Below, piece after piece: positions 12,183 to 19,360 of a stretch of DNA of 51,479 bases (position 1 is the stretch's first letter; the number at the start of each line of letters is the position of its first letter). This stretch comes from a virus (taxonomy: Duplodnaviria; Heunggongvirae; Uroviricota; Caudoviricetes): positions 1-51,479 of IMG/VR virus record IMGVR_UViG_3300045988_007046. One strand, written 5' to 3'. The notes under the pieces are model-generated. The model was given only the letters and a program-made list of their open reading frames with translations, did not search any database and had not been told where the DNA came from. The translations under genes and the position numbers were made by a program.

Positions 12183-13598
12183 ATGAGCGAATTATTTAAA
12201 CATGCGCACCTTCATGCAGGTCGAACTGAAAATGGTGCTGTAAACCATACTTCATCAATGTCTGCTCTTGTAGACTTTTACAAAGCTGCTGGTTCAAGCC
12301 GTAGCAACGTAGAAATCTTACCAGACCTGTTCTACAAAGCTTTGCGTGAGGATGTTGATGTTGCAGTTCGTATTTTGCTTCATATGCGAGATGTACGAGA
12401 AGGTATGGGTGAGCGTAAAGCCTTCAGAACTGTTTTACTTCAAGCGATTGAAGACAAAGTTTTAGAGCCTACGCAGGTTCTTCGCATTATGGATAAGATT
12501 GCAGAACTTGGTCGTTTTGATGACTTCAAAATCTTCGTAGGTACTCGTTTCGAGACAGATGCCTTCAAACATCTAGAAGCAGCATTACTAGACCCTGCAA
12601 CAGCAGGTTTGGCGGCTAAGTGGTTACCACGAGTCAAACCACGTCATAAGCAGTTTGTAAAACGTTTCTGCAAGTTTGCCAACTTGAGTGAGAAAGAGTA
12701 CCGCACACTGTTGTCTGCACTATCTGATACAGTTGAGCAAAAAATCTCTGCTAATGAGTTTGGTAAGATTGACTACAGTAAGATTCCTTCACTTGCTGCT
12801 GCACGTTACCAAAAACTGTTTAACCGCAAAGATGGAGAACGCTACAAAGCTTACATCGAGTCCTTATCAAAGGGTGAGACTAAGATTAATGCTGGTGCTG
12901 TTTACCCATACGATGTAATTAAATCTGTTAAGCATGGTAATGCAGATGTTGCTAATGAGCAGTGGAAAGCACTACCAAACTGGATGGCAGAGGGTGAAAA
13001 CATCTTGTGTATGTCTGATGTTTCAAGCTCAATGTCTTGGGTGAATTTTGGTTCAATTACTGCTCTTGATATTGGTGTTTCACTTGCATTGTATGTAGCA
13101 GAACGTAATACAGGTTGCTTTAAGAATGAGTTGATGGTTTATTCAACAAACCCTCACTTCATCGAACTGAGTGGTGATTTACGAAACCGTCATCGTCAGG
13201 TGATGCGACACGTTGAATATGGCTCAACTAACTTACAAGCAGCTTTTGACCGTATTCTTGAAACAGGTAAAAGAAACAACTTGACTCAGAAAGATATGCC
13301 AAGTAAGCTTATCATCTTCTCCGATATGGAGTTCAATCAGGTTGATGGAGCTAACGGTCGTACAAACTTTGAAGCAATTCGTAGTAAGTACAAAAAAGCT
13401 GGATACGAAATGCCTCAACTGGTATTCTGGTACTTAGCAAACCGTAATGGTACTTGCGAAGTGTCTGTTAAGGATAACGGTGTAGCAATGGTATCTGGTT
13501 TTTCTCCAGCTACTTTAAAAGCTCTGCTTGGTGGTGAGAAGTTTGACCCAATCAGCGTAATGCTCAAAGCAGTAATGATTGACCGTTATATCTGGTAA
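12183..13598 (+). CDS. vWA-domain protein, possibly Ro60/TROVE-like RNA-binding protein
   Basis: 471 aa; MIDAS-like D-x-S-x-S (MSDVSSSMSW) followed by vWA-like strands (ELMVYS, GSTNLQAAF, KLIIFSDMEF, GVAMVSGFS) whose order resembles the Ro60 C-terminal vWA domain; helical N-terminal region. Confidence 0.4.
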   Translation: MSELFKHAHLHAGRTENGAVNHTSSMSALVDFYKAAGSSRSNVEILPDLFYKALREDVDVAVRILLHMRDVREGMGERKAFRTVLLQAIEDKVLEPTQVLRIMDKIAELGRFDDFKIFVGTRFETDAFKHLEAALLDPATAGLAAKWLPRVKPRHKQFVKRFCKFANLSEKEYRTLLSALSDTVEQKISANEFGKIDYSKIPSLAAARYQKLFNRKDGERYKAYIESLSKGETKINAGAVYPYDVIKSVKHGNADVANEQWKALPNWMAEGENILCMSDVSSSMSWVNFGSITALDIGVSLALYVAERNTGCFKNELMVYSTNPHFIELSGDLRNRHRQVMRHVEYGSTNLQAAFDRILETGKRNNLTQKDMPSKLIIFSDMEFNQVDGANGRTNFEAIRSKYKKAGYEMPQLVFWYLANRNGTCEVSVKDNGVAMVSGFSPATLKALLGGEKFDPISVMLKAVMIDRYIW

Positions 13599-13609
13599 AA
13601 AGTTTTAAA

Positions 13610-13646
13610 AAGGGTATTGACAATGTGTTTGATGCCCTTTAATATG
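13610..13646 (+). promoter_or_regulatory. sigma70-like promoter candidate
   Basis: AAAAAGGGTATTGACA with TTGACA at 13617-13622, 17-nt spacer, TAATAT at 13640-13645. Confidence 0.5.
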
Positions 13647-13699
13647 TTCTACATAGAAACGAAACGAGAGCTTTTCTAAGATACTGAAAAATATTTTAA

Positions 13700-13738
13700 A
13701 AAAGTTCTTGACAACCACTAAAAAATAATGTTAAAGTG
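13700..13738 (+). promoter_or_regulatory. sigma70-like promoter candidate upstream of the tRNA array
   Basis: AAAAAGTTCTTGACA with TTGACA at 13708-13713, TAAAGT at 13732-13737. Confidence 0.45.
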
Positions 13739-13763
13739 GTTACATAGAGTTTGAAAAGTTTAT

Positions 13764-13840
13764 CTCTGTTTAGCTCAGCTTGGTAGAGCGTTCCGTTTGG
13801 GGCGGTAAGGCCGGAGGTTCAAGTCCTCCAACAGAGACCA
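13764..13840 (+). tRNA. tRNA-Pro (anticodon TGG)
   Basis: Hand-folded: acceptor CTCTGTT/AACAGAG with C1-G72, T-arm GGAGG-TTCAAGT-CCTCC, anticodon loop TTTGGGG, CCA encoded. Confidence 0.65.
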
Positions 13841-13847
13841 AATTAAT

Positions 13848-13925
13848 GTTCCAGTAGACAAAATGGTAAAGTCACCACTCTTTCAAAGTGGATATCTGAG
13901 GGTTCAAATCCCTTCTGGAACGCCA
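13848..13925 (+). tRNA. tRNA-Glu (anticodon TTC)
   Basis: Acceptor GTTCCAG/CTGGAAC, anticodon arm CCACT-CTTTCAA-AGTGG, T-loop TTCAAAT, CCA encoded. Confidence 0.75.
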
Positions 13926-13930
13926 GTTTT

Positions 13931-14004
13931 GACAGAAGACCAATTACAGCAAACTTAATCTACTCATCTGACACGAAATCGGACAAAGAAGATATTTGGT
14001 CTGG
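13931..14004 (+). ncRNA. structured spacer element E1 (CAGAAGACC...GGTCTGG family)
   Basis: 5' GACAGAAGACCAA pairs with 3' TTGGTCTGG; conserved internal ACAGCAA. Confidence 0.35.
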
Positions 14005-14015
14005 TCATTGAGAAT

Positions 14016-14092
14016 TGCGGGTATAGAGAAAGGGCGTCTCACATGTCTCATTAGCATGGTATCGGCAGGTTCGACTCCTGCACCCGCCTCCA
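14016..14092 (+). tRNA. tRNA with CAT anticodon (Met or Ile2), with a 1-72 mismatch
   Basis: Acceptor TGCGGGT/ACCCGCC (U1 opposite C72), anticodon arm CATGT-CTCATTA-GCATG, T-arm GCAGG-TTCGACT-CCTGC, CCA encoded. Confidence 0.55.
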
Positions 14093-14097
14093 ATTTT

Positions 14098-14158
14098 GCA
14101 GAAGACCGTATTCAGCAACAAAATACTTTTTGCGGATAAAAGAAAAAACACGGTCTGG
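14098..14158 (+). ncRNA. structured spacer element E2 (CAGAAGACC...GGTCTGG family)
   Basis: 5' GCAGAAGACCGT pairs with 3' ACGGTCTGG; internal TTCAGCAA. Confidence 0.35.
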
Positions 14159-14169
14159 CAATGTATTAA

Positions 14170-14246
14170 GGTTAGGAAGCACATAAGGTATGTGCGGTCG
14201 CCTGTTAAGCGAATGGCACAGGGTTCGAATCCCTGACTAACCGCCA
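14170..14246 (+). tRNA. tRNA-Asn (anticodon GTT)
   Basis: Acceptor GGTTAGG/ACTAACC, D-arm GCAC/GTGC, anticodon loop CTGTTAA, T-arm CAGGG-TTCGAAT-CCCTG, CCA encoded. Confidence 0.7.
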
Positions 14247-14255
14247 AATTTAAAT

Positions 14256-14343
14256 GTGTCGTTATCCCGTAGATGGTAGCGGTGGGGACTGTAAATCCCT
14301 TGTCATTGAGACTCGGTAGGTTCGACTCCTACACGACACACCA
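14256..14343 (+). tRNA. tRNA-Tyr (anticodon GTA), long variable arm
   Basis: Acceptor GTGTCGT/ACGACAC, anticodon arm GGGGA-CTGTAAA-TCCCT, long variable arm, T-arm GTAGG-TTCGACT-CCTAC, CCA encoded. Confidence 0.75.
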
Positions 14344-14348
14344 ATAAA

Positions 14349-14426
14349 GGTTATGTAGTTTAATTTGGTTAAAATACTCCCCTGTCACGGGAGATGATGA
14401 GGGTTCAAATCCCTTCGTAACCGCCA
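14349..14426 (+). tRNA. tRNA-Asp (anticodon GTC)
   Basis: Acceptor GGTTATG/CGTAACC, anticodon arm CTCCC-CTGTCAC-GGGAG, T-loop TTCAAAT, CCA encoded. Confidence 0.75.
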
Positions 14427-14432
14427 ATTTTG

Positions 14433-14478
14433 AGAGGGCTATTTAGCCCCTCCCTTAAAGAGTTCTTACGAGTATTCT
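14433..14478 (+). promoter_or_regulatory. paired hairpins in a tRNA spacer (possible processing or termination signal)
   Basis: GGGCT-ATTT-AGCCC hairpin followed by CCCTTAAAGA...TCTTTAAGGG inverted repeat enclosing GTTCTTACGAG. Confidence 0.4.
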
Positions 14479-14487
14479 TTAAGGGAG

Positions 14488-14561
14488 CAGAAGACCAAAT
14501 ACAGCAAGAATGTATGAAATTTCAAGCCAATTTAATTTTGAAAATTTAAAACTTGGTCTGG
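14488..14561 (+). ncRNA. structured spacer element E3 (CAGAAGACC...GGTCTGG family)
   Basis: 5' CAGAAGACCAAA pairs with 3' ACTTGGTCTGG; internal ACAGCAA. Confidence 0.35.
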
Positions 14562-14574
14562 CTCAACAAATTTA

Positions 14575-14706
14575 CAGAAGACCGTTTACAGCAAAACTTA
14601 AACAATCTATTTCTCCGGTAAAGAAAAGGCGAAGGTTCGATTCCTTCACTCGGCAGATGTCGAGTTGGTGTAATGGTAGCACTTAAGATGATAAACAACG
14701 GTCTGG
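14575..14706 (+). ncRNA. structured element E4: CAGAAGACC...GGTCTGG closing helix enclosing a tRNA-like module (Y-RNA/YrlA-like candidate)
   Basis: Closing helix AGACCGTT (14579-14586) with AACGGTCT; inside: perfect T-arm GAAGG-TTCGATT-CCTTC (14631-14647), 7-bp hairpin ACTCGGC-AGAT-GTCGAGT (14648-14665), D-arm-like GTGT-AATGGTA-GCAC (14668-14682). Confidence 0.4.
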
Positions 14707-14707
14707 T

Positions 14708-14851
14708 AATTATCTTTGTAGATAAGTTATTAAGCTTACCTGTGAGTATGCGACCACAAAGGGTGAAAGGGTAAATTCTAGATTTAAACCCAAAAAGGCA
14801 CATCGCTACAGACCTTAAGCAAGTCTGGGTAGCTTATCTACAAAGATAATT
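14708..14851 (+). repeat. 19-bp perfect inverted repeat enclosing a ~106-nt segment
   Basis: AATTATCTTTGTAGATAAG (14708-14726) is the exact reverse complement of CTTATCTACAAAGATAATT (14833-14851); interior holds a CAGAC...GTCTG hairpin. Confidence 0.6.
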
Positions 14852-14855
14852 TAAT

Positions 14856-14931
14856 GGAAGTGTAGCAGAATGGTGATGCGGCAGACTTTTAATCTGACAG
14901 GCGATGGGTTCGAATCCCTCCACTTCTACCA
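14856..14931 (+). tRNA. tRNA-Lys (anticodon TTT)
   Basis: Acceptor GGAAGTG/CACTTCT with G1-U72, anticodon loop CTTTTAA, T-region ATGGG-TTCGAAT-CCCTC (only 3 clean T-stem pairs), CCA encoded. Confidence 0.6.
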
Positions 14932-14936
14932 AAAAT

Positions 14937-15013
14937 GGTTCAGTCGCAGATAAGGTAATGCAAGGGTTTCATAAGCCCTATGAATGTGGGTTCGATTCCC
15001 ACCTGAACCTCCA
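14937..15013 (+). tRNA. tRNA with CAT anticodon (Met or Ile2)
   Basis: Acceptor GGTTCAG/CTGAACC, anticodon arm AGGGT-TTCATAA-GCCCT, T-arm GTGGG-TTCGATT-CCCAC, CCA encoded. Confidence 0.7.
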
Positions 15014-15014
15014 A

Positions 15015-15090
15015 GCTGGTATAGTTAAGAAGGTTATAACACTCCCCTGATAAGGGAACATCGGTGGTTCGATTCCACCTACCAGTACCA
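15015..15090 (+). tRNA. tRNA-Ile (anticodon GAT)
   Basis: Acceptor GCTGGTA/TACCAGT, anticodon loop CTGATAA, T-arm GGTGG-TTCGATT-CCACC, CCA encoded; starts 1 nt after the preceding tRNA. Confidence 0.7.
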
Positions 15091-15097
15091 ATTTCAA

Positions 15098-15136
15098 TAA
15101 AGTTGTTGACATTGAGATGTGACTACTTTATAGTAA
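15098..15136 (+). promoter_or_regulatory. sigma70-like promoter candidate inside the tRNA array
   Basis: AATAAAGTTGTTGACA with TTGACA at 15106-15111, exact 17-nt spacer, TATAGT at 15129-15134. Confidence 0.55.
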
Positions 15137-15294
15137 CCTTAGTTTTCGTTGCGTAGCGTCTATTTTGCAAATTTAAAATAAATGCAAACGACAATGTTTT
15201 TCTGGCAGTAGCTTGATAGGCTAAACACCAGTGAGGTCTTCCAATCCCTCATCAAAGAATTTGGCGTACTCGCCCACGGTATGATTAATAAGGT

Positions 15295-15336
15295 GGGCAT
15301 CTTTAAGGGCTTTCTAAGAGAGTCTTTAAAGATAAT
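15295..15336 (+). promoter_or_regulatory. spacer hairpin (ATCTTTAA...TTAAAGAT inverted repeat)
   Basis: 8-bp inverted repeat enclosing GGGCTTTCTAAGAGAGTC; related to other spacer hairpins carrying TTCTTA/CTAAGA motifs. Confidence 0.35.
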
Positions 15337-15338
15337 TA

Positions 15339-15420
15339 CGGGGCGTATCTCAGCGGTCTTCTAAACCGCCGTTAACCGAGTAAGTGGAGTATGCGGGTTC
15401 GAGTCCTGCCGCCTCGACCA
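15339..15420 (+). ncRNA. atypical tRNA-like element (possible aberrant tRNA-Arg TCT or pseudo-tRNA)
   Basis: Good acceptor CGGGGCG/CGCCTCG, T-arm GCGGG-TTCGAGT-CCTGC and CCA, but the only anticodon-like hairpin GCGGT-CTTCTAA-ACCGC lies 7 nt after the acceptor (no room for a D-arm) and is followed by a 23-nt extra region. Confidence 0.3.
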
Positions 15421-15563
15421 ATTTAGTTAGCAGATTACTTAGACGACCTAAGCGTGTCTTCCTGTAAGGAGGTGGTCTGTATCTCATGTTTTCCAGAACA
15501 TGTAAATAATCTGAGAAGGGGCTTTACAGTGTTGCGAAAATACGGTAAGCTTCGAATTACAGT

Positions 15564-15646
15564 ATGGGACGATGTTAAGACTCTAAGGCATGAGCAACGG
15601 CCTCCAAAACCGTTTCAAAGGGGTTCAACTCCTCCGTCCCATGCCA
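15564..15646 (+). tRNA. tRNA-Trp-like (anticodon CCA) with extended D region
   Basis: Exact acceptor ATGGGAC/GTCCCAT, anticodon loop CTCCAAA (identical to canonical Trp loop), T-loop TTCAACT, CCA encoded; about 7 extra nt between acceptor and anticodon stem. Confidence 0.4.
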
Positions 15647-15659
15647 AAGTCTTATTAGG

Positions 15660-15750
15660 GGTAGGTAGCGGCTAATGGTAGCCAAACTGTCTTGAAAACA
15701 GTTGCCACTGTAGAGATACGGTGAGGGTTCGACTCCTTTACTTACCGCCT
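15660..15750 (+). tRNA. tRNA-Ser (anticodon TGA), long variable arm
   Basis: Acceptor GGTAGGT/ACTTACC, anticodon arm ACTGT-CTTGAAA-ACAGT, long variable arm, T-arm GAGGG-TTCGACT-CCTTT; 3' CCA only partly encoded. Confidence 0.65.
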
Positions 15751-15900
15751 AATAAGATTTACACCGTCCATGCTTGCTCGCATTTTCGGTTTATCCCTCG
15801 TGTATTGTCGTACACTGATAAAGCACCTAGTAGGTGTCACGGAGAAGAGATAATATCAAGCTCTCCAAAGGTTCTAGTCACCGGATTAAACAAGACTATG

Positions 15901-15925
15901 CAAAGACCTATTTAGGTCTTTTTAG
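15901..15925 (+). terminator. terminator-like hairpin inside the tRNA array
   Basis: AAAGACC-TATTT-AGGTCTTT followed by TTTTA. Confidence 0.4.
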
Positions 15926-16003
15926 AGGGCTTCTAAGGTTATTAGTCGCTTGTTGTGGAACCTTGTTGCTCAGGTTCTTAGAAGTTCTCTAAAAAGATTT
16001 AAT

Positions 16004-16082
16004 GGGAGATTGACGGCAACTTGGTAGACCTATCTCGCTTAGAACGAGATGCTTGAGGGTTCGAATCCCTTGTCTCCTACCA
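16004..16082 (+). tRNA. tRNA with Leu anticodon TAG but short variable arm (atypical)
   Basis: Acceptor GGGAGAT/GTCTCCT, Leu-like D-loop CAACTTGGTAGAC, anticodon arm ATCTCG-CTTAGAA-CGAGAT, only ~4-nt variable region, T-arm GAGGG-TTCGAAT-CCCTT, A73, CCA encoded. Confidence 0.5.
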
Positions 16083-16089
16083 AATTAAT

Positions 16090-16165
16090 GCAGGTGTAGC
16101 AAAATGGTTATGCGGCTGACTCTTAATCAGTAAGACGATGGGTTCAATTCCCTCCACCTGTACCA
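16090..16165 (+). tRNA. tRNA-Lys (anticodon CTT)
   Basis: Acceptor GCAGGTG/CACCTGT, anticodon arm GCTGA-CTCTTAA-TCAGT, T-region ATGGG-TTCAATT-CCCTC (same pattern as Lys-TTT), CCA encoded. Confidence 0.65.
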
Positions 16166-16171
16166 GACATT

Positions 16172-16247
16172 GGGGATGTAGTTTACATGGTTAAAACATA
16201 AGTTTTGCAAACTTAAGTACAGGGTTCAATTCCCTGCTTCTCCACCA
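16172..16247 (+). tRNA. tRNA-Ala (anticodon TGC)
   Basis: G3-U70 pair present; D-arm GTTT/AAAC, anticodon arm TAAGT-TTTGCAA-ACTTA, T-arm CAGGG-TTCAATT-CCCTG, CCA encoded. Confidence 0.75.
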
Positions 16248-16253
16248 ATTAGT

Positions 16254-16328
16254 GCATCCATAGTTTAAACGGGAAAATTACAGTCTTCCAAACTGAGGTT
16301 GAGGGTTCGATTCCCTCTGGATGCTCCA
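16254..16328 (+). tRNA. tRNA-Gly (anticodon TCC)
   Basis: Exact acceptor GCATCCA/TGGATGC, anticodon loop CTTCCAA, T-arm GAGGG-TTCGATT-CCCTC, CCA encoded. Confidence 0.7.
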
Positions 16329-16335
16329 AATTAAT

Positions 16336-16411
16336 GCTCCTATCGTATAATTGGCTATTACGGTTGCCTTGTAAGCAACTTATCAGGGTTCGAATCCTTG
16401 TGGGAGCACCA
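16336..16411 (+). tRNA. tRNA-Thr (anticodon TGT)
   Basis: Acceptor GCTCCTA/TGGGAGC, anticodon arm GTTGC-CTTGTAA-GCAAC, T-arm CAGGG-TTCGAAT-CCTTG, CCA encoded. Confidence 0.75.
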
Positions 16412-16414
16412 ATT

Positions 16415-16502
16415 CAGAGGTCAAGTGAAAGACCGCTGGTGTCAACTGAAGACCGTAACAAATTCCACGGAGTTGAGTTAGCGGCACAACTTCAGACCTC
16501 TT
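16415..16502 (+). ncRNA. structured spacer element E5 (AGAGGTC...GACCTCT closing helix, internal GAAGACC motifs)
   Basis: CAGAGGTC at 16415-16422 pairs with GACCTCT at 16496-16502; interior has GAAAGACCG and TGAAGACCG plus CCGCT/AGCGG complementarity. Confidence 0.3.
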
Positions 16503-16506
16503 TCAT

Positions 16507-16581
16507 GCTCGCTTAGTTTATATGGTAAAACATCACCCTTACAAGATGAAGAAAAAGGTTCAAGTCCTTTAGTGAGTACCA
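16507..16581 (+). tRNA. tRNA-Val (anticodon TAC)
   Basis: Acceptor GCTCGCT/AGTGAGT (with G-U pairs), D-arm GTTT/AAAC, anticodon loop CTTACAA, T-arm AAAGG-TTCAAGT-CCTTT, CCA encoded. Confidence 0.65.
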
Positions 16582-16582
16582 T

Positions 16583-16660
16583 GTTCCAGTATCCCAATTG
16601 GCAGAGGATGCAAGCTCAAACCTTGTATTAGTGACGGTTCGAATCCGTCTTGGAACACCA
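16583..16660 (+). tRNA. tRNA with Leu anticodon CAA but short variable arm (atypical)
   Basis: Acceptor GTTCCAG/TTGGAAC, D-loop CCAATTGGCAGAG, anticodon arm GCAAG-CTCAAAC-CTTGT, short variable region, T-arm GACGG-TTCGAAT-CCGTC, A73, CCA encoded. Confidence 0.5.
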
Positions 16661-16665
16661 ATTTT

Positions 16666-16741
16666 GCAGGATTAGTTCAAATGGATAGAGCAACAGTCTA
16701 CGAAGCTGTTAATAGGGGTTCGAATCCCTTATCCTGCGCCA
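16666..16741 (+). tRNA. tRNA-Arg (anticodon ACG)
   Basis: Exact acceptor GCAGGAT/ATCCTGC, anticodon arm ACAGT-CTACGAA-GCTGT, T-arm AGGGG-TTCGAAT-CCCTT, CCA encoded. Confidence 0.7.
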
Positions 16742-16758
16742 GATAAAAAGGTGATACT

Positions 16759-17001
16759 ATGCAAACATTAACAGTAGTTGAACATGAAAACTGTGAGAAT
16801 ATTGAGTTTGTCAGGGTCATTGGTGTTGAACACCACATTTTCTTAAAAGTAGGGTACTTATGTGACCCCGCTAGAGTAGAAAGATTTATACGTGATTGTT
16901 TTGGTGGTAGACAGCTAAAGAGTGTTATTTTTGAGACAGTTTTACCAGAAGGTTTAGAAACGAATAATAACATTTATCTCCTTACAAGGATTAGACGATG
17001 A
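16759..17001 (+). CDS. hypothetical protein embedded in the tRNA array
   Basis: 80-aa ORF starting 18 nt after tRNA-Arg; 4-nt overlap with the next ORF. Confidence 0.4.
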   Translation: MQTLTVVEHENCENIEFVRVIGVEHHIFLKVGYLCDPARVERFIRDCFGGRQLKSVIFETVLPEGLETNNNIYLLTRIRR

Positions 17002-17555
17002 GATATTTAAAATATGCTTCATGGATTTTCCTAGCTTTGCTAGAACCATTAGCAGCAACCTTAGCAGTTATCTTAGCACCTTTCGTAGTTCCATTTTACA
17101 GTGAGAAGAAAGGCCACTTACCTTTCGGATTTAGATGGATGGAGACATATGACAACCCAATTGATGGTGACGAAGGTCATATCGAACGATGGGCTAAGAT
17201 TAGAAAGATTGGTAAGCTGGGTGTCTACATGCAGAGAGTCGGATGGCTCTGGAGAAACAAAGCTTATAACTTCTCTTACCATGTATTAGGAAGAGATGTA
17301 AAAGATGTTACTAAGTGGAAAGGTAATATCAACGTAAGTTCTGACCCTGAAGATAATCAGACAGGTTATCTCCTAATGTGGAACAGTAATGCTTGGGGAT
17401 TATTCGCTTTTATCCCATCAATTAAAGTCTTTGGTAAACAGTTTTACTGGAGAATTTATATTGGATGGAAACTAAAAAGTGTTGTCCCAGAAGAAAGAGC
17501 ATTCTCAAGGGAAAGAGTTATGTTGGCATTCTTTATTCATCCACTGAGAAAGTAA
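16998..17555 (+). CDS. hypothetical membrane protein embedded in the tRNA array
   Basis: 185 aa; N-terminal hydrophobic segment WIFLALLEPLAATLAVILAPFVV; Trp-rich. Confidence 0.5.
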   Translation: MRYLKYASWIFLALLEPLAATLAVILAPFVVPFYSEKKGHLPFGFRWMETYDNPIDGDEGHIERWAKIRKIGKLGVYMQRVGWLWRNKAYNFSYHVLGRDVKDVTKWKGNINVSSDPEDNQTGYLLMWNSNAWGLFAFIPSIKVFGKQFYWRIYIGWKLKSVVPEERAFSRERVMLAFFIHPLRK

Positions 17556-17563
17556 AGATTTAA

Positions 17564-17639
17564 AGGGGATTAGTTTACAAGGTTAAAACCTCGGTCTTTG
17601 AAATCGAAGAAGTTGGTTCAATTCCAACATCCCCCGCCA
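17564..17639 (+). tRNA. tRNA-Gln (anticodon TTG)
   Basis: Acceptor AGGGGAT/ATCCCCC (weak 1-72 pair), D-arm GTTT/AAAC, anticodon arm TCGGT-CTTTGAA-ATCGA, T-arm GTTGG-TTCAATT-CCAAC, CCA encoded. Confidence 0.65.
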
Positions 17640-17641
17640 AT

Positions 17642-17720
17642 GCTCCATTACTCCAATTGGCAGAGAGGCCAGACTTAAAATCTGTGTTATGTATCGGTTC
17701 GAATCCGATATGGAGTACCA
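17642..17720 (+). tRNA. tRNA with Leu anticodon TAA but short variable arm (atypical)
   Basis: Acceptor GCTCCAT/ATGGAGT, D-loop CCAATTGGCAGAG (shared with 16583-16660), anticodon loop CTTAAAA, ~7-nt variable region, T-arm ATCGG-TTCGAAT-CCGAT, A73, CCA encoded. Confidence 0.5.
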
Positions 17721-17725
17721 AATTT

Positions 17726-17801
17726 AGCGGTATAGCATAACTGGCAATGCAACAGTCTCTGAAGCTGTCCTATTAAGGTTCAAATCCTTATGCCGCTGCC
17801 A
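17726..17801 (+). tRNA. tRNA-Gln (anticodon CTG)
   Basis: Acceptor AGCGGTA/TGCCGCT, D-arm GCAT/ATGC, anticodon arm ACAGT-CTCTGAA-GCTGT, T-arm TAAGG-TTCAAAT-CCTTA, CCA encoded. Confidence 0.7.
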
Positions 17802-17802
17802 C

Positions 17803-17830
17803 TTCTAAGGGTTCTTACGAGAGTCCTTAA
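17803..17830 (+). promoter_or_regulatory. spacer hairpin carrying the GTTCTTACGAG motif
   Basis: CTAAGG-GTTCTTACGAGAGT-CCTTAA; same loop motif as the hairpin at 14445-14478. Confidence 0.4.
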
Positions 17831-17832
17831 AT

Positions 17833-17908
17833 GTGGCCTTATCATAAATGGTAATGACCCATGCTGTGAACATGGTCTATACGGGTTCAAATCCCGTAGG
17901 TCACCCCA
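17833..17908 (+). tRNA. tRNA-His (anticodon GTG)
   Basis: Acceptor GTGGCCT/AGGTCAC, D-arm TCAT/ATGA, anticodon arm CCATG-CTGTGAA-CATGG, T-arm ACGGG-TTCAAAT-CCCGT, CCA encoded. Confidence 0.75.
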
Positions 17909-17913
17909 ATTTA

Positions 17914-17990
17914 TAGTCCAAGTAGCTTATATGGTTAAAGCGCGTGTCTGAAAAACATGAGAAGAGGGTTCAAATCCCACTGGACTACCA
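17914..17990 (+). tRNA. tRNA-Phe (anticodon GAA)
   Basis: Exact acceptor TAGTCCA/TGGACTA, anticodon arm CGTGT-CTGAAAA-ACATG, T-loop TTCAAAT; 3' CCA not cleanly encoded. Confidence 0.6.
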
Positions 17991-18006
17991 ATTTCAAAGG
18001 TGCTTA

Positions 18007-18741
18007 ATGAAAGAGATGACAGAACAAGGTAAGGAGATTTTTAATCTCTTAAAAACCGGTAAAGGGTTTTCTAACCCACTTATTACTGGTGCAGCAGTTC
18101 TCGGTGGAACCGTAGCTGCCTCTACATCACTTGTAAGCTCTATTAGTTCTGTAACAGACCCTACAATGCAGGAGAAACTTGTTGCTGCTGGACTTACAAC
18201 AGTCCTTCTAAACAGCTTTACAACAAGCCTTACAAGCACTACAGCAACTACTAAGACCCTGACAGACTACGGTCAAAAGTCTATTGATGAGTTTTCATCA
18301 CGTATGCAGGTAGCAAAGGGATATTCCAATGTTATGAGTGCAGCAGGAGAACAAGTTGGTTGTACACCGTTCAGTGGTATTATGGGTGTTGCTACAGAAT
18401 ATGGTCAAAAAGCTATTGATACAATTAACAGTACACTAGAGAGTGTTAACGATGTATTAAGTGACTTACAAGACGCTATTGATGAGGGTCTTGATACTAT
18501 TTCTGATTTAGCTAATCAGGCTGTTAGTAAGATTAATGAAGGTATTTCAAAGATTACAGCTTATGCAGATGAAGTTGTGCAGATGATTGAAGAAGAAGCT
18601 GCCCTTATTGCAGAGTACCTTAAAACGAATATCAATGGGTTCTTAGCAGGTATCTTACCAGACTGGTTTGACGATGCCTGTAAAACTGGTGTAATTGACA
18701 CTATTGCAACACCAGAAATGAAGAACGCATTACAGAAATAA
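18007..18741 (+). CDS. hypothetical Ser/Thr-rich protein embedded in the tRNA array
   Basis: ORF track gives 17944-18741 but that start overlaps tRNA-Phe; first ATG clear of the tRNA is 18007 (MKEMTEQGKE), preceded by AAGGTG; hydrophobic/Ser-Thr-rich N-half, acidic helical C-half. Confidence 0.5.
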   Translation: MKEMTEQGKEIFNLLKTGKGFSNPLITGAAVLGGTVAASTSLVSSISSVTDPTMQEKLVAAGLTTVLLNSFTTSLTSTTATTKTLTDYGQKSIDEFSSRMQVAKGYSNVMSAAGEQVGCTPFSGIMGVATEYGQKAIDTINSTLESVNDVLSDLQDAIDEGLDTISDLANQAVSKINEGISKITAYADEVVQMIEEEAALIAEYLKTNINGFLAGILPDWFDDACKTGVIDTIATPEMKNALQK

Positions 18742-18743
18742 AT

Positions 18744-18836
18744 GGAAGATTAACCCTAAAAGGTAAGGGAGCAGTTTGCTAAACTGCCAGTAGCTGAGAA
18801 ATCGGTGTACCAGTTCAAGTCTGGTATCTTCCTCCA
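18744..18836 (+). tRNA. tRNA-Ser (anticodon GCT), long variable arm
   Basis: Exact acceptor GGAAGAT/ATCTTCC, anticodon arm GCAGT-TTGCTAA-ACTGC, long variable arm, T-arm ACCAG-TTCAAGT-CTGGT, CCA encoded. Confidence 0.75.
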
Positions 18837-18840
18837 ATTT

Positions 18841-18916
18841 GAATCCGTGACAGAAATGGCTATGTGCCTGTCTGCAAAACAGGTTTATAAGGGTTCGAGT
18901 CCCTTCGGATTCTCCA
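18841..18916 (+). tRNA. tRNA-Cys (anticodon GCA)
   Basis: Exact acceptor GAATCCG/CGGATTC, anticodon arm CCTGT-CTGCAAA-ACAGG, T-arm AAGGG-TTCGAGT-CCCTT, CCA encoded. Confidence 0.75.
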
Positions 18917-18953
18917 AGTTATTTTACTCTCTCTCAATTAAAATAATAATAAT

Positions 18954-19013
18954 GCCCTGCTATAAGTATTCTTCCTTTCGCTACCGAAGAGTATTTTTAG
19001 ACAGGGCTTTTTT
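18954..19013 (+). terminator. rho-independent terminator closing the tRNA array
   Basis: GCCCTG...CAGGGC outer stem with an inner imperfect hairpin, followed by TTTTTT at 19008-19013. Confidence 0.5.
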
Positions 19014-19078
19014 ACAGAGTTATACTTTATAAGAAGGCTTATACAGTATGTCTCTGACGTACATTGTGGTTTCTCCTT

Positions 19079-19104
19079 GACGGTCTCTGTGCCGTCTTTT
19101 TTAA
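19079..19104 (+). terminator. rho-independent terminator
   Basis: GACGG-TCTCTGTG-CCGTC hairpin followed by TTTTTT. Confidence 0.6.
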
Positions 19105-19138
19105 GGAGAAACATGGTTAATTATTTGGAGAAAACATA

Positions 19139-19339
19139 ATGAGTGAGACCGTTTATAAAGAACTTTATGAAGCTAACAAAAAGCTAGAATTTATGCAGAA
19201 TACTATCATGGCAATTGCAGACAGATTGTCTGTAGCAACAGGTATTGATATTAAAGAAGCATCTATGGATGCACTTCTTGATGCTGTTGATGCAAAGTTC
19301 GAAGTTAAGAAAGAAGAGACTGCTACAGACTCTGAATAA
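19139..19339 (+). CDS. hypothetical small acidic protein (possible small terminase or packaging accessory)
   Basis: 66-aa ORF directly upstream of the large terminase, with GGAGAAAACATA upstream of its ATG; function is inferred from position only. Confidence 0.4.
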   Translation: MSETVYKELYEANKKLEFMQNTIMAIADRLSVATGIDIKEASMDALLDAVDAKFEVKKEETATDSE

Positions 19340-19360
19340 TTCTATTTGCGGAGGTGCTTA

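What the first reader, a model, noticed from the sequence alone, without database searches (positions are those of the whole stretch)
13764..18916. Large tRNA array of about 26 tRNAs interrupted by ORFs, promoters and hairpins
The array carries tRNAs with anticodons for Pro, Glu, Met/Ile2 (two CAT), Asn, Tyr, Asp, Lys (two), Ile, Ser (two), Leu (three), Ala, Gly, Thr, Val, Arg, Gln (two), His, Phe, Cys and Trp. Most encode CCA and many are separated by only 1-6 nt. That is a near-complete decoding set, far beyond simple codon-usage patching. It is consistent with translational autonomy or with countering tRNA-targeting host defences such as anticodon nucleases and tRNA depletion.
Basis: partly seen in the sequence, partly recalled or inferred. 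Interest (0 to 1): 0.55.

Follow-up and report, generated by a model that had tools for sequence, protein, structure and literature searches.

The report
Phage tRNA operon hiding Y-RNA genes
The tRNA array is real but already known from FelixO1-type phages; the new part is that four of its "spacer hairpins" are unannotated Y-RNA-like genes lying next to a Ro60-like protein gene, and they belong to an RNA family that also matches the unexplained "Class I" RNAs of social amoebae.

Summary
ARAGORN finds 25 canonical tRNA genes at 13764-18916, all on the + strand, 24 of them encoding CCA.

The window is a Felixounavirus, 99.8% identical to phage ASO1A, so the array itself is already known. About ten U34 tRNAs match A-ending codons that the phage prefers and the host rarely uses. 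The others do not. Anticodon loops of Lys, Tyr and Asn are identical to the E. coli ones.

The new result is in the spacers:
- The gene just upstream (12183-13598, DUF2828) has a Ro60 fold.
- Four spacers hold paralogous RNAs (Y1-Y4): a covarying terminal helix, then single-stranded UUACAGCAA, then a 3' CUG. Y4 also carries a circularly permuted tRNA-like domain, as in bacterial YrlA.
- Covariance models built from unrelated phages find these elements only beside DUF2828 genes and only on the gene strand. They find none in about 0.9 Mb of control DNA.
- A model built only from Dictyostelium Class I RNAs finds the same phage elements.

Best reading: a tRNA supply operon fused to a Ro60/Y-RNA module. 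Binding of these RNAs to the protein, and their function, are inferred, not shown.

The parts
12183..13598 (+). Ro60-fold protein gene (471 aa; Pfam DUF2828 + DUF7788; PHROG 850 'RNA-binding protein')
   Evidence: Pfam and PHROGs. AF2 model has pLDDT 87. The top 9 Foldseek PDB hits are all Ro60/TROVE structures, E 6e-8 to 2.5e-6, TM up to 0.67. The MIDAS residues D279, S281, S283, T349 and D381 are invariant in the 34-sequence alignment.
13617..13737 (+). Two sigma-70-like promoters (13617-13645, 13708-13737) ahead of the first tRNA
   Evidence: Consensus scan, 10 of 12 matches each. This is a pattern match only.
13764..13925 (+). tRNA-Pro(UGG) 13764-13840 and tRNA-Glu(UUC) 13848-13925
   Evidence: ARAGORN; Rfam.
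13929..14009 (+). Y1, short Y-RNA-like gene. Lower stem TTGAC/GTCA; AGA/G internal loop; helix AGACCAA (13937-13943) / TTGGTCT (13996-14002); motif TTACAGCAA (13944-13952)
   Evidence: CM R2, built from unrelated phages, hits 13934-14007 with E 5.3e-5. The Dictyostelid model R3 hits 13938-14003 with E 0.97. Coordinates.
14016..14092 (+). tRNA-Met-like (CAU), with a T1:C72 mismatch at the top of the acceptor stem
   Evidence: ARAGORN. It does not reach the Rfam gathering score.
14095..14165 (+). Y2, short Y-RNA-like gene. Lower stem TTGC (within 14095-14099) / GCAA; helix AGACCGT (14103-14109) / ACGGTCT (14150-14156); motif ATTCAGCAA (14110-14118)
   Evidence: R2 hits 14100-14161 with E 2.2e-5. 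Rfam Dicty_Class_I_RNA scores 24 bits at 14104-14157. The lower stem has two compensating alleles in relatives.
14170..14426 (+). tRNA-Asn(GUU) 14170-14246, tRNA-Tyr(GUA) 14256-14343 and tRNA-Asp(GUC) 14349-14426
   Evidence: ARAGORN; Rfam.
14433..14487 (+). Two hairpins between tRNA-Asp and Y3 (GAGGGGCTA.. and 14450-14487); function unknown
   Evidence: Inverted repeat I9. The fold of 14427-14572 has z = -4.9.
14484..14566 (+). Y3, short Y-RNA-like gene. Lower stem GAGC (within 14484-14488) / GCTC; helix AGACCAA (14492-14498) / TTGGTCT (14553-14559); motif ATACAGCAA (14499-14507)
   Evidence: R2 hits 14489-14563 with E 1.3e-3. Orthologues are present in FelixO1, SUSP2 and Mordin.
14571..14711 (+). 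Y4, YrlA-like Y RNA. Helix AGACCGT (14579-14585) / ACGGTCT (14698-14704); motif TTACAGCAA (14586-14594); inner stem CTTAA (14597-14601) / TTAAG (14683-14687); V hairpin 14610-14626; T arm 14631-14647; closed acceptor-like hairpin 14648-14665; D arm 14667-14683
   Evidence: The MFE fold gives this architecture. CM R1 scores 99.4 bits, but this sequence is a seed member. The acceptor-like stem covaries fully in SUSP2 and Mordin. Family covariation.
14708..14851 (+). Unexplained 144-nt element closed by a 22-bp stem (95% complementary)
   Evidence: Inverted repeat I2; fold z = -2.2. It is 98-100% conserved in Felixounavirus loci and was not found in SUSP2 or Mordin.
14856..15090 (+). tRNA-Lys(UUU) 14856-14931, tRNA-Met/Ile2(CAU) 14937-15013 and tRNA-Ile(GAU) 15015-15090
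   Evidence: ARAGORN; Rfam.
15106..15134 (+). Internal sigma-70-like promoter (TTGACA-17-TATAGT)
   Evidence: Best site of the scan, 11 of 12 matches. This is a pattern match only.
15339..15420 (+). Non-canonical tRNA-Arg(UCU)-like gene: acceptor stem, anticodon arm, T arm and CCA are present; the D arm is replaced by 4 nt and there is a 20-nt variable insert
   Evidence: Rfam tRNA 31.7 bits, with alignment; ARAGORN is negative. The same allele is in wV8 and FelixO1. A canonical tRNA-Arg(UCU) occupies this site in L003, L004, SUSP2 and Mordin.
15564..15646 (+).
   Evidence: Read directly from the sequence, plus a 23-bit tRNA-Sec match. It is conserved at 88-100% across three genera. wV8 carries a canonical tRNA-Trp instead.
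15660..15749 (+). tRNA-Ser(UGA), the only tRNA in the array without an encoded CCA
   Evidence: ARAGORN.
15912..16002 (+). Long hairpin (26-nt arms, 85% complementary) that abuts tRNA-Leu
   Evidence: Inverted repeat I1.
16004..16411 (+). tRNA-Leu(UAG), Lys(CUU), Ala(UGC), Gly(UCC) and Thr(UGU)
   Evidence: ARAGORN; Rfam.
16412..16506 (+). Structured spacer containing CTGAAGACCGTAACAAATTCC, possibly a decayed 5' half of a Y element
   Evidence: Fold z = -2.9; motif listing. Neither R1 nor R2 hits it as a Y element.
16507..16741 (+). tRNA-Val(UAC), Leu(CAA) and Arg(ACG)
   Evidence: ARAGORN; Rfam.
16759..17555 (+). Two ORFs inside the array: 80 aa (PHROG 14202) and 185 aa (DUF7338); function unknown
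17564..17990 (+). tRNA-Gln(UUG), Leu(UAA), Gln(CUG), His(GUG) and Phe(GAA)
   Evidence: ARAGORN; Rfam.
18007..18741 (+). ORF of 244 aa (DUF7217); function unknown
18744..18916 (+). tRNA-Ser(GCU) and tRNA-Cys(GCA)
   Evidence: ARAGORN; Rfam.
19079..19104 (+). Terminator-like hairpin followed by a T run, downstream of the array
   Evidence: Consensus scan.

Best explanation
This is the FelixO1-type RNA operon of a Felixounavirus, and it holds two things.

(1) A tRNA supply. There are 25 canonical tRNA genes and 2 non-canonical tRNA-like genes. They are probably transcribed rightward from sigma-70-like promoters and cut out by the host's tRNA-processing enzymes. The U34 members match the phage's A-ending codon preference. 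The others plausibly keep translation going when host tRNAs become limiting or are cleaved.

(2) A Ro60/Y-RNA module. The gene at the head of the array encodes a Ro60-fold protein of the DUF2828 family. Four of the spacers are genes for Y-RNA-like small RNAs (Y1-Y4). Each has a covarying terminal helix, a single-stranded UUACAGCAA-type motif directly 3' of the helix's 5' strand, and a CUG after its 3' strand. Y4 also carries a circularly permuted tRNA-like domain (V, T, closed acceptor stem, D), as in bacterial YrlA. Y1 and Y2 fill their spacers to within 2-8 nt of the flanking tRNAs, so tRNA processing would release them.

By analogy with Rsr-YrlA-PNPase in bacteria and Ro60-Yrl-PNPase of Thermus phage phiLo, the protein probably binds these RNAs and redirects or blocks a host ribonuclease or RNA-surveillance activity during infection. 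This would fit the reported anti-Ppl activity of gp130 in Bas63, another Felixounavirus.

Shown here: the genes, the protein fold, the RNA family, its covariation and its linkage to DUF2828 genes. Inferred: expression, processing, RNA-protein binding and the cellular target.
For: tRNAs. Phage identity: 99.8% to ASO1A; wV8 annotation.

Codon match.

Ro60 fold. The protein is 34% identical over its full length to the mycobacteriophage 'Ro-like RNA binding protein'.

Paralogues: the 5' motif occurs 4 times in the array against 0.5 expected in the whole window. Both halves of the helix covary among Y1-Y4 and among the orthologues in FelixO1, wV8, SUSP2 and Mordin.

Family evidence:
- R1 (the tRNA-like type) gives 104 hits at E<=1, all on the gene strand, in 953 kb of DUF2828 loci. 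Non-seed hits reach E 2e-8, including mycobacteriophage Zakai. In 926 kb of control contigs the only hits were in two stray Felixounavirus contigs.
- Covariation on 24 sequences: 86% of cells paired against 57% in shuffles; 158 double-sided changes against 54+-6.
- R2 was built only from non-Ounavirinae short elements. In the 51-kb window it finds Y1, Y2 and Y3 (E 2e-5 to 1e-3) plus a weak partial match inside Y4, and nothing outside these four elements. It gives 0 hits in 908 kb of control DNA and 58 hits at E<=0.01, all on the gene strand, in the 75 loci.
- The terminal helix is 99.2% paired in 54 sequences, with compensatory change at 7 of 7 pairs.
- My own descriptor gives 0.77 hits per kb within 800 nt of the gene on its strand, against 0.14-0.17 elsewhere.

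Rfam YrlA aligns below threshold to the T-AS-D modules of relatives (39.2, 38.9 and 28.7 bits; Zakai).

Literature.
Against: - There are no expression, end-mapping or binding data for any of these RNAs.
- Rfam YrlA does not hit window Y4 at all, and relatives stay well below its 69-bit gathering score.
- The YrlA 5' motif GNCGAAN0-1G is replaced by UUACAGCAA.
- Single-sequence folding energies of Y1, Y2 and Y4 are not exceptional (z -0.6 to -1.9). The support is comparative, not thermodynamic.
- The alignments used for the covariation counts were fitted to the models, which favours pairing. E-values from the custom models are rough.
- About a third of DUF2828 loci showed no element within 6 kb.
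- The promoter scan is no richer than shuffled sequence (13 sites against 13.0 expected).
- Bas63 tRNAs were mostly dispensable on laboratory hosts.
Confidence: 0.7

Rival explanations
1. Codon patching only. The array exists just to supply tRNAs for the AT-rich phage's preferred codons. The spacer elements are processing signals or terminators with no function of their own.
For: The phage strongly prefers NNA codons, and each has a matching U34 tRNA. AGA makes up 45% of Arg codons, 17-fold more than in the host sample. The tRNA junctions are tight and 24 of 25 genes encode CCA, typical of a processed operon.
Against: Fifteen or so tRNAs serve codons for which the host is well supplied, and the Watson-Crick-cognate enrichment is weak (Mann-Whitney p = 0.07). 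The spacer elements recur beside DUF2828 genes in unrelated phages that have no tRNA within 6 kb (for example L010, L014, L037, L045, L054). They therefore cannot be tRNA-processing signals.
Confidence: 0.15
2. Anti-defence tRNA set. The tRNAs mainly replace host tRNAs destroyed by anticodon nucleases (PrrC, RloC, PARIS, retron-PtuAB, colicin-like) or act as decoys for them.
For: The set includes every classic target (Lys-UUU, Tyr, Asn, Asp, His, Arg). The phage tRNAs are only 59-72% identical to the host isoacceptors, and every anticodon stem differs. The adjacent gene's Bas63 counterpart is reported to counter a defence system.
Against: The anticodon loops of Lys, Tyr, Asn and Val are identical to those of E. 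coli K-12, so there is no loop-mutation signature. Bas63 tRNAs were mostly non-essential on four laboratory hosts, although those hosts may lack the relevant nucleases.
Confidence: 0.3
3. Y1-Y4 are decayed tRNA pseudogenes, or scars of the homing-endonuclease traffic that reshuffles this array. They would be conserved only through linkage.
For: The array is a mosaic. HNH endonuclease genes sit between tRNAs in FelixO1 and wV8, and the Arg and Trp positions carry alternative cassettes. Y4 contains tRNA-derived arms. The spacer 16412-16506 looks like a decayed copy.
Against: Compensatory changes keep the helices intact across genera and across unrelated phage families. The single-stranded motif is near-invariant. 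The elements are strand-specific and lie next to the gene in 50 or more of the 75 loci. Pseudogenes would not keep their pairing.
Confidence: 0.05
4. The elements form a real RNA family, but their partner is not the DUF2828 protein. The partner could be a host protein, an RRM-type protein as for Dictyostelium Class I RNA, or the ribosome. Linkage to the gene would then reflect co-regulation only.
For: No binding data exist. In Dictyostelium the only proven direct binder of a Class I RNA is the RRM protein Rnp1A/CIBP. The YrlA Ro-binding motif is not present.
Against: Tight same-strand adjacency to the gene across very divergent phages is the same criterion that identified YrlA next to rsr. The protein has the Ro60 fold. 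The phage phiLo Ro60 binds RNAs encoded beside its own gene.
Confidence: 0.15

Closest known systems
FelixO1 / Felixounavirus tRNA cluster (public records such as NC_005282, NC_012749 wV8, MZ726791 ASO1A)
   Same: Same locus, gene order and tRNA set. The window is 99.8% identical to ASO1A over 13000-20000, and the tRNAs are annotated in those records.
   Different: Nothing of substance at the tRNA level. The public records leave Y1-Y4 unannotated. In their place they carry doubtful 'hypothetical protein' ORFs, for example wV8 gp048 on the opposite strand across Y3/Y4.
Bacterial and phage Y RNAs of the YrlA type with Ro60/Rsr (Rfam RF02553; Chen et al. 2014, PMC4201824; Thermus phage phiLo Ro60-Yrl1/2, PMC12135203)
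   Same: Small RNAs encoded next to a Ro60-fold gene on the same strand. A terminal stem and a large internal loop. A permuted tRNA-like domain in the order V-T-acceptor hairpin-D (Y4). Several RNAs per locus, some without the tRNA module, like YrlB. Some relatives carry NCCA in the acceptor loop, which recalls the RNase P-cleaved, CCA-tailed YrlA of M. smegmatis.
   Different: The protein belongs to the DUF2828/DUF7788 sequence family and is not a Pfam TROVE hit. The conserved 5' motif is UUACAGCAA rather than GNCGAAN0-1G/CGAA. The Rfam model does not reach threshold. The RNAs are embedded in a tRNA operon. No PNPase link has been shown.
Dictyostelid Class I RNAs (Rfam RF01414; Kjellin et al. 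2021, PMC7919456)
   Same: About 60 nt long. A 6-7-bp terminal stem in which the pairing, not the sequence, is conserved. A conserved 5' G that pairs with the C of a 3' CUG(U). The 11-nt motif CCUUACAGCAA directly after the 5' strand, which is matched exactly in phage loci L014 and L022. An A-rich stretch before the 3' strand. A few members have a T-arm-like GGUUCGAUCC hairpin (asu_can_20, ppa_can_99). A model built only from Dictyostelid sequences finds the phage elements (34 hits against 0 in the control).
   Different: Eukaryotic, with Pol-type DUSE promoters and multiple dispersed genes. The known binder is an RRM protein. They are described as unique to Dictyostelia. No linked DUF2828 gene is known to me. 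Phage scores against RF01414 stay below its gathering score (24-31 bits against 41.5).
tRNA arrays of other large phages (T4, T5, rV5, KVP40-like, mycobacteriophage cluster C)
   Same: Clustered, tightly spaced tRNA genes that encode CCA and are biased towards phage-preferred codons. Roles proposed in the literature include codon adaptation, compensation for loss of host tRNAs and escape from anticodon nucleases.
   Different: Here the array is headed by a Ro60-like gene and interleaved with its presumed partner RNAs. DUF2828 genes also sit beside tRNA arrays in roughly 25-30 of the 75 unrelated loci.

Membership tests
tRNA (Rfam RF00005 / ARAGORN cloverleaf) | Cloverleaf with acceptor, D, anticodon and T arms that scores above the curated threshold | tested here: met
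   25 genes by ARAGORN, 24 of which also reach the Rfam gathering score. The Arg-UCU-like gene passes Rfam (31.7 against 29 bits) but has no D arm. The Trp-like gene fails both tests.
Ro60 / TROVE proteins | HEAT-repeat ring plus a C-terminal vWA domain with a MIDAS site | tested here: met
   AF2 model with pLDDT 87 and pTM 0.87. The nine best PDB matches are all Ro60/TROVE structures and align over the full length. DxSxS...T...D is invariant in 34 homologues.
Ro60 / TROVE proteins | Sequence membership (Pfam TROVE PF05731, or significant sequence similarity to solved Ro60 proteins) | tested here: not met
   Pfam gives only DUF2828 and DUF7788. The profile against PDB sequences gives Ro60 at E 0.4 only, and phmmer finds nothing.
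Ro60 / TROVE proteins | Binds Y RNAs and misfolded RNAs | not testable with these tools
   Needs RNA immunoprecipitation or gel-shift experiments.
YrlA-type Y RNA (RF02553) | Encoded within a few kb of the Ro60 gene, on the same strand | tested here: met
   Y1-Y4 lie 331-1113 nt downstream of the gene's stop, on the same strand. The same holds across the DUF2828 loci.
YrlA-type Y RNA (RF02553) | Permuted tRNA-like domain: V, T arm, closed acceptor-like stem, D arm | tested here: met
   Y4, 14610-14683. The acceptor-like and T stems covary. Y1-Y3 lack this domain, as YrlB does.
YrlA-type Y RNA (RF02553) | GNCGAAN0-1G motif near the 5' end (the presumed Ro60 contact) | tested here: not met
   The conserved 5' motif is WWACAGCAA. 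A GGCGAAGG in window Y4 is simply the start of the T stem and is not conserved: FelixO1 has GGAGAGGG and Mordin GAGAGAAGG.
YrlA-type Y RNA (RF02553) | Reaches the Rfam gathering score (69 bits) | tested here: not met
   No hit at Y4 even at E<=10. Relatives score 21-39 bits.
Dictyostelid Class I RNA (RF01414) | Short terminal stem in which a conserved 5' G pairs with the C of a 3' CUG(U), with the stem sequence free to covary | tested here: met
   The G-C pair is present in 53 of 54 phage elements, followed by UG. All 7 pairs covary.
Dictyostelid Class I RNA (RF01414) | 11-nt motif CCUUACAGCAA next to the 5' strand (T3, C6, C9, A10 and A11 invariant) | tested here: met
   C6, G8, C9, A10 and A11 are invariant and T4 is at 90% or more in alignment A6. 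The window has TTACAGCAA twice, plus ATACAGCAA and ATTCAGCAA.
Dictyostelid Class I RNA (RF01414) | Reaches the Rfam gathering score (41.5 bits); 42-65 nt long; DUSE promoter; dictyostelid genome | tested here: not met
   Scores are 24-31 bits. Y1-Y3 are 71-83 nt including the lineage-specific lower stem. These are phage genes behind bacterial-type promoters.

The most novel reading that the evidence does not exclude
The short Y-like RNAs linked to phage DUF2828 (Ro60-fold) genes and the Class I RNAs of dictyostelid social amoebae are one RNA family. Class I RNAs are abundant and developmentally regulated, their function has been unknown since 2004, and they are described as unique to Dictyostelia. 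On this reading Class I RNAs are Y-RNA equivalents, and their missing partner is a Ro60-like (DUF2828-type) protein. The module would have been shared between phages or bacteria and amoebae by descent or by horizontal transfer. The Felixounavirus array would then be a tractable E. coli phage model for that ribonucleoprotein.
Probability: 0.45. Interest if true: 0.85.

Novelty: new variant of a known kind. Interest (0 to 1): 0.6.

Why it matters
The tRNA array itself adds nothing new. The Y-like RNAs matter for three reasons.

- They turn a speculation into specific genes with coordinates. [quoted passage not shown] The candidates are not among the annotated tRNAs; they lie in the spacers. They can now be deleted, mutated and pulled down in an easy E. 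coli phage whose Ro60-like gene already has a reported phenotype (countering Ppl in the related phage Bas63).
- They define an RNA family that Rfam does not recognise. It accompanies a very widespread phage protein family: 710 GenBank phage records, from Felixounavirus to Listeria, Staphylococcus, Vibrio, Campylobacter and mycobacteriophages. This extends Ro60/Y-RNA biology well beyond TROVE-annotated genomes. It also corrects annotations, for example the "tRNA-Thr" of mycobacteriophage Zakai and the opposite-strand hypothetical ORFs in Felixounavirus records.
- The match to dictyostelid Class I RNAs offers a concrete, testable hypothesis for RNAs whose molecular function has been open for two decades.

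Tried and rejected
- Rfam at gathering and at E-value thresholds found nothing but tRNAs in the array at curated scores. Weak tmRNA and permuted-tmRNA hits at 15032-15337 and miRNA-type hits were treated as chance.
- A pattern scan of IMG/VR with CAGAAGACCNNNNNCAGCAA returned mostly chance single matches. I reused those contigs as negative controls.
- MAFFT alignments of the tRNA-like elements put the acceptor-like and D stems in inconsistent registers. As a result the D helix scores only 57% paired, and I make no claim from it.
- Single-sequence folding z-scores were unremarkable for Y1, Y2 and Y4, so thermodynamic stability is not used as evidence.
- The anticodon-loop comparison with E. coli K-12 covered six isoacceptors only. 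No loop signature was seen for Lys, Tyr, Asn or Val. Asp, Arg and the rest were not compared.
- I could not find out whether Dictyostelia encode a DUF2828 protein. The afdb50 library was unavailable, Avesson 2011 and two Wolin-laboratory reviews are not held, supplement searches for peptide motifs and domain names were empty, and literature searches for the Pfam/InterPro identifiers gave nothing relevant.
- NCBIfam gave no meaningful family for the protein.
- The identity of the two CAU tRNAs (initiator, elongator or Ile2) was left open.

Full report
**1. Observation**

ARAGORN finds 25 tRNA genes between 13764 and 18916, all on the + strand, and none elsewhere in the window. Rfam's tRNA model confirms 24 of them at its curated score and adds a 26th, odd match at 15339-15417.

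24 of the 25 genes encode CCA. 15 junctions are only 1-9 nt long.

That Trp is the element at 15564-15646. It has a CUCCAAA anticodon loop, a T arm, a 7-bp acceptor stem and a GCCA end, but both tRNA detectors reject it.

ORFs, sigma-70-like promoters and long hairpins do interrupt the array.

**2. What the window is**

Positions 13000-20000 are 99.8% identical to Escherichia phage vB_EcoM_ASO1A and 94-98% identical to many other Felixounavirus genomes. The same tRNA cluster is annotated in wV8 and FelixO1. As a tRNA array, the finding is therefore already known.

**3. The tRNA set**

I compared codon usage in 52 window ORFs with 49 E. coli K-12 genes.
- The phage prefers A-ending codons that the host uses rarely: CTA x4.9, TTA x3.0, CCA x3.1, ACA x3.1, TCA x2.9, GGA x2.3. 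Each is matched by a U34 tRNA in the array.
- The G34 tRNAs (Asn, Asp, His, Tyr, Phe, Cys, Ile) serve codons for which the host is well supplied. The overall enrichment of Watson-Crick cognates is weak (p = 0.07).
- Simple wobble covers 42 of 61 codons.
- AGA is 45% of phage Arg codons. In this phage the tRNA-Arg(UCU) position holds an allele whose D arm is replaced by 4 nt and which carries a 20-nt variable insert. Relatives L003, L004, SUSP2 and Mordin have a canonical tRNA-Arg(UCU) there, and wV8 has a canonical tRNA-Trp where this phage has the Trp-like gene.

I then compared six isoacceptors with E. coli K-12. The anticodon loops of Lys-UUU, Tyr, Asn and Val are identical to the host's. 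His differs at positions 32 and 38 and Pro at 38. All anticodon stems differ, and overall identity is 59-72%.

The set goes beyond codon patching. It is not autonomy, and the specific loop-mutation signature of nuclease evasion is absent for the classic targets.

**4. The gene at the head of the array**

ORF 12183-13598 is Pfam DUF2828 + DUF7788 and PHROG 850 "RNA-binding protein". Sequence searches against solved structures give nothing significant.

An AlphaFold model built on 34 homologues has pLDDT 87. Its nine best PDB matches are all Ro60/TROVE structures aligned over the full length: Xenopus and human Ro60, Deinococcus Rsr and Thermus phage phiLo Ro60. E-values run from 6e-8 to 2.5e-6 and TM-scores reach 0.67. 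The vWA MIDAS residues are invariant.

tblastn finds the family in 710 phage records. These include the mycobacteriophage "Ro-like RNA binding protein", at 34% identity over the full length.

A 2024 preprint on Bas63, another Felixounavirus, noted that its gp130 resembles Ro60 and lies directly upstream of the tRNA genes, the same arrangement as here. It showed that gp130 counters the Ppl defence system. [quoted passage not shown]

**5. The spacers contain four Y-RNA-like genes**

The motif GAAGACC-N5-CAGCAA occurs four times in the array, against 0.5 matches expected in the whole window. Each copy is paired downstream with GGTCTGG. The four elements are:
- Y1, 13929-14009
- Y2, 14095-14165
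- Y3, 14484-14566
- Y4, 14571-14711

All four share one design:
- a 4-bp lower stem;
- an AGA/G internal loop;
- a 7-bp helix, AGACCNN paired with NNGGUCU;
- the single-stranded motif (U/A)(U/A)(A/U)CAGCAA;
- a variable core.

Both halves of the helix covary among the four paralogues: GAC/GTC, TGC/GCA, AGC/GCT, TAC/GTA in the lower stem, and AA/TT against GT/AC in the upper helix.

Y1 and Y2 fill their spacers to within 2-8 nt of the flanking tRNAs.

The core of Y4 folds into a V hairpin, a T arm (GAAGGTTCGATTCCTTC), a closed acceptor-like hairpin and a D arm. This is a circularly permuted tRNA, the defining architecture of bacterial YrlA.

All four elements are conserved in FelixO1, wV8 and SUSP2 (genus Suspvirus). 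Mordin (genus Mooglevirus) has Y2-Y4, and a weaker Y1-like match (R2, E 1.7e-3). Y4's acceptor-like stem is completely rewritten while keeping its pairing: ACTCGGC/GTCGAGT, then ACACG/CGTGT, then ACCCTTC/GAAGGGT. Y2's lower stem exists as two compensating alleles.

**6. It is a family linked to DUF2828 genes**

I fetched 80 DUF2828 loci from IMG/VR, 75 of them outside the Felixounavirus group at 38-47% protein identity.
- A strict descriptor for permuted T-acceptor-D modules gave 18 hits on the gene strand and 1 on the other strand.
- Every strong hit had a 7-bp closing helix and an NN(N)C(A/C)GCAA motif in the same relative positions, with the helix sequences all different.
- A helix-plus-motif descriptor is five times denser within 800 nt of the gene on its own strand than anywhere else: 0.77 against 0.14-0.17 hits per kb, with hits in 55 of 75 loci.

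Covariance model R1 (tRNA-like type, 13 seeds) gave 104 hits at E<=1, all on the gene strand.
- Non-seed hits reached E 2e-8. One lies directly after the Ro-like gene of mycobacteriophage Zakai and overlaps its annotated "tRNA-Thr".
- In 926 kb of unrelated viral contigs the only hits were in two stray Felixounavirus contigs.
- On 24 aligned members, 86% of cells pair against 57% in shuffles. There are 158 double-sided changes against 54+-6. Six of 7 closing-helix pairs and 6 of 6 acceptor-stem pairs show compensation.

Model R2 was built only from 24 short elements of non-Ounavirinae phages.
- In the 51-kb window it finds Y2 (E 2e-5), Y1 (5e-5) and Y3 (1e-3), plus a weak partial match inside Y4 (E 1.6), and nothing outside these four elements.
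- It gives no hit in 908 kb of control DNA.
- It gives 58 hits at E<=0.01, all on the gene strand, in the 75 loci.
- Its helix is 99.2% paired in 54 sequences, with all 7 pairs compensating.

Counting R1 and R2 together, about 50 of the 75 loci have at least one element. Many of those loci have no tRNA nearby, so the elements cannot be tRNA-processing signals.

Caveats: the model-fitted alignments favour pairing, and the E-values of these quickly calibrated models are rough. The strand asymmetry and the empty controls do not depend on either point.

**7. Relation to known families**

Rfam YrlA aligns to the T-acceptor-D modules of relatives in the correct permuted order, but below threshold: 39.2, 38.9 and 28.7 bits and 21 bits in Zakai, against a gathering score of 69. 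It does not hit window Y4 at all. The YrlA 5' motif GNCGAAN0-1G is replaced here by UUACAGCAA. So these RNAs work like YrlA/YrlB and are plausibly distant relatives, but they fail two defining tests for membership.

Unexpectedly, Rfam's Dictyostelium Class I RNA model matched the short elements, again below threshold (24-31 bits). Kjellin et al. 2021 define Class I RNAs as follows:
- about 60 nt long;
- a 6-bp terminal stem that covaries;
- an invariant 5' G that pairs with the C of a 3' CUGU;
- the 11-nt motif CCUUACAGCAA next to the 5' strand.

They describe these RNAs as unique to Dictyostelia. The paper does not mention Y RNA or Ro60.

The phage elements meet each structural criterion. L014 and L022 even contain CCTTACAGCAA exactly.

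As a reciprocal test I built model R3 from 25 Class I sequences of four dictyostelid species, taken from that paper's supplement.
- R3 gave 34 hits at E<=1 in the window plus the DUF2828 loci. All are on the gene strand and nearly all fall on elements that R1, R2 or the descriptor had already found (I did not check every hit). The best E-value is 4.5e-4, SUSP2 Y2 scores 9e-4 and window Y1 0.97.
- R3 gave none in 908 kb of control DNA.

Two Class I members (asu_can_20 and ppa_can_99) also carry a GGUUCGAUCC T-arm-like hairpin.

I found no paper that links Class I RNAs to Y RNA, Ro60, DUF2828 or phages. I could not determine whether dictyostelids encode a DUF2828 protein.

**8. Mechanism**

Shown:
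- gene content;
- the Ro60 fold;
- a conserved, covarying RNA family that is strand- and position-linked to the gene;
- the tRNA-like module in Y4.

Inferred:
- The array is transcribed from the promoters at 13617-13737 and 15106-15134. These are pattern matches only, and the scan is no richer than shuffled sequence.
- RNase P and the 3'-processing enzymes release both the tRNAs and the Y RNAs.
- The Ro60-like protein binds the helix-plus-motif module.
- The resulting particle acts on a host exoribonuclease or RNA-surveillance pathway. This is by analogy with Rsr-YrlA-PNPase and phiLo Ro60-Yrl-PNPase and fits the anti-Ppl phenotype in Bas63.

DUF2828 genes repeatedly sit beside tRNA arrays in unrelated phages. 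In Salmonella, rsr-yrlBA lies in the tRNA-damage-induced rtcBA operon; I cite that from the title and abstract listed and from my own knowledge. Together these suggest a connection with tRNA damage or turnover. That connection is conjecture.

**9. Rivals**

- Pure codon patching, with the spacers acting as processing signals, is contradicted by the tRNA-free loci that still carry the elements.
- An anti-nuclease role for the tRNAs remains open and is compatible with the main explanation.
- Pseudogene or homing-scar origins are contradicted by the compensatory changes.
- A partner other than the DUF2828 protein cannot be excluded without binding data.

**10. Verdict**

The array is ordinary and already known. 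The embedded Ro60-like/Y-like RNA module is a new variant of a known kind. Only one preprint anticipates it, and only loosely. The link to Class I RNAs is the most novel reading that the evidence leaves open.

Noticed in passing
window 15339-15420: tRNA-Arg(UCU)-like gene with an intact acceptor stem, anticodon arm, T arm and CCA. Its D arm is replaced by 4 nt and it has a 20-nt variable insert. The same allele is in wV8 and FelixO1, while other relatives carry a canonical tRNA-Arg(UCU) at this site. AGA is the phage's commonest Arg codon (45%), so this odd allele may still function. A D-armless tRNA in a phage would be unusual.
   Followed up: partly
window 15564-15646: Trp(CCA)-like gene with an over-long, non-canonical D region. 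It is conserved at 88-100% across Felixounavirus, Suspvirus and Mooglevirus but is rejected by both tRNA detectors. wV8 has a canonical tRNA-Trp plus an HNH endonuclease gene at this place.
   Followed up: partly
window 14708-14851: A 144-nt element closed by a 22-bp near-perfect stem, directly after Y4. It is 98-100% conserved within Felixounavirus and was not found in SUSP2 or Mordin. No family match; function unknown.
   Followed up: partly
window 15912-16002, 14450-14487 and 15299-15333: Long hairpins (17-26-nt arms) in other spacers. One abuts tRNA-Leu. They may be RNase III-type processing sites or terminators.
   Followed up: no
window 16412-16506: A structured spacer (fold z = -2.9) that contains CTGAAGACCGTAACAAATTCC. 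This resembles the 5' half of a Y element with a degraded motif and no 3' GGTCTGG, so it may be a decayed fifth copy.
   Followed up: partly
L204 (Mycobacterium phage Zakai, KX580961) 4445-4708: The annotated 'tRNA-Thr' (4510-4580), directly after the Ro-like gene, does not reach the Rfam tRNA threshold. It lies inside a YrlA-like member of the family (R1 hit 4504-4636, E 3.5e-8), which is flanked by two short members (4445-4502 and 4640-4708). The annotation is probably wrong.
   Followed up: partly
L001 (wV8, NC_012749) and other public Felixounavirus records: Several annotated 'hypothetical protein' ORFs overlap tRNAs or Y3/Y4, some on the opposite strand (for example wV8 gp048, gp049 and gp053). 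They are probably annotation artefacts.
   Followed up: no
L007-L081 (IMG/VR DUF2828 loci): In roughly 25-30 of the 75 unrelated loci the DUF2828 gene lies beside a same-strand tRNA array. In some tRNA-like family members the acceptor hairpin loop reads NCCA, as if RNase P cleavage would leave a CCA-ended, two-piece tRNA mimic.
   Followed up: partly
Kjellin 2021 supplement (asu_can_20, ppa_can_99, DdR-66/67): A few dictyostelid Class I RNAs are longer and contain a GGUUCGAUCC T-arm-like hairpin followed by a second hairpin. This is the same optional tRNA-like module seen in phage and bacterial Y RNAs.
   Followed up: partly
L023 11696-11922: A group I intron (Rfam 71.5 bits) lies a few kb from the DUF2828 gene in an unrelated viral contig.
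   Followed up: no
window 14016-14092 and 14937-15013: There are two CAU tRNAs. The first has a T1:C72 mismatch, which is initiator-like, but it lacks the GGG/CCC anticodon stem and fails the Rfam threshold. The second has three consecutive G-C pairs in its anticodon stem and a paired 1:72. Which one is initiator, elongator Met or Ile2 (lysidine) was not resolved.
   Followed up: no
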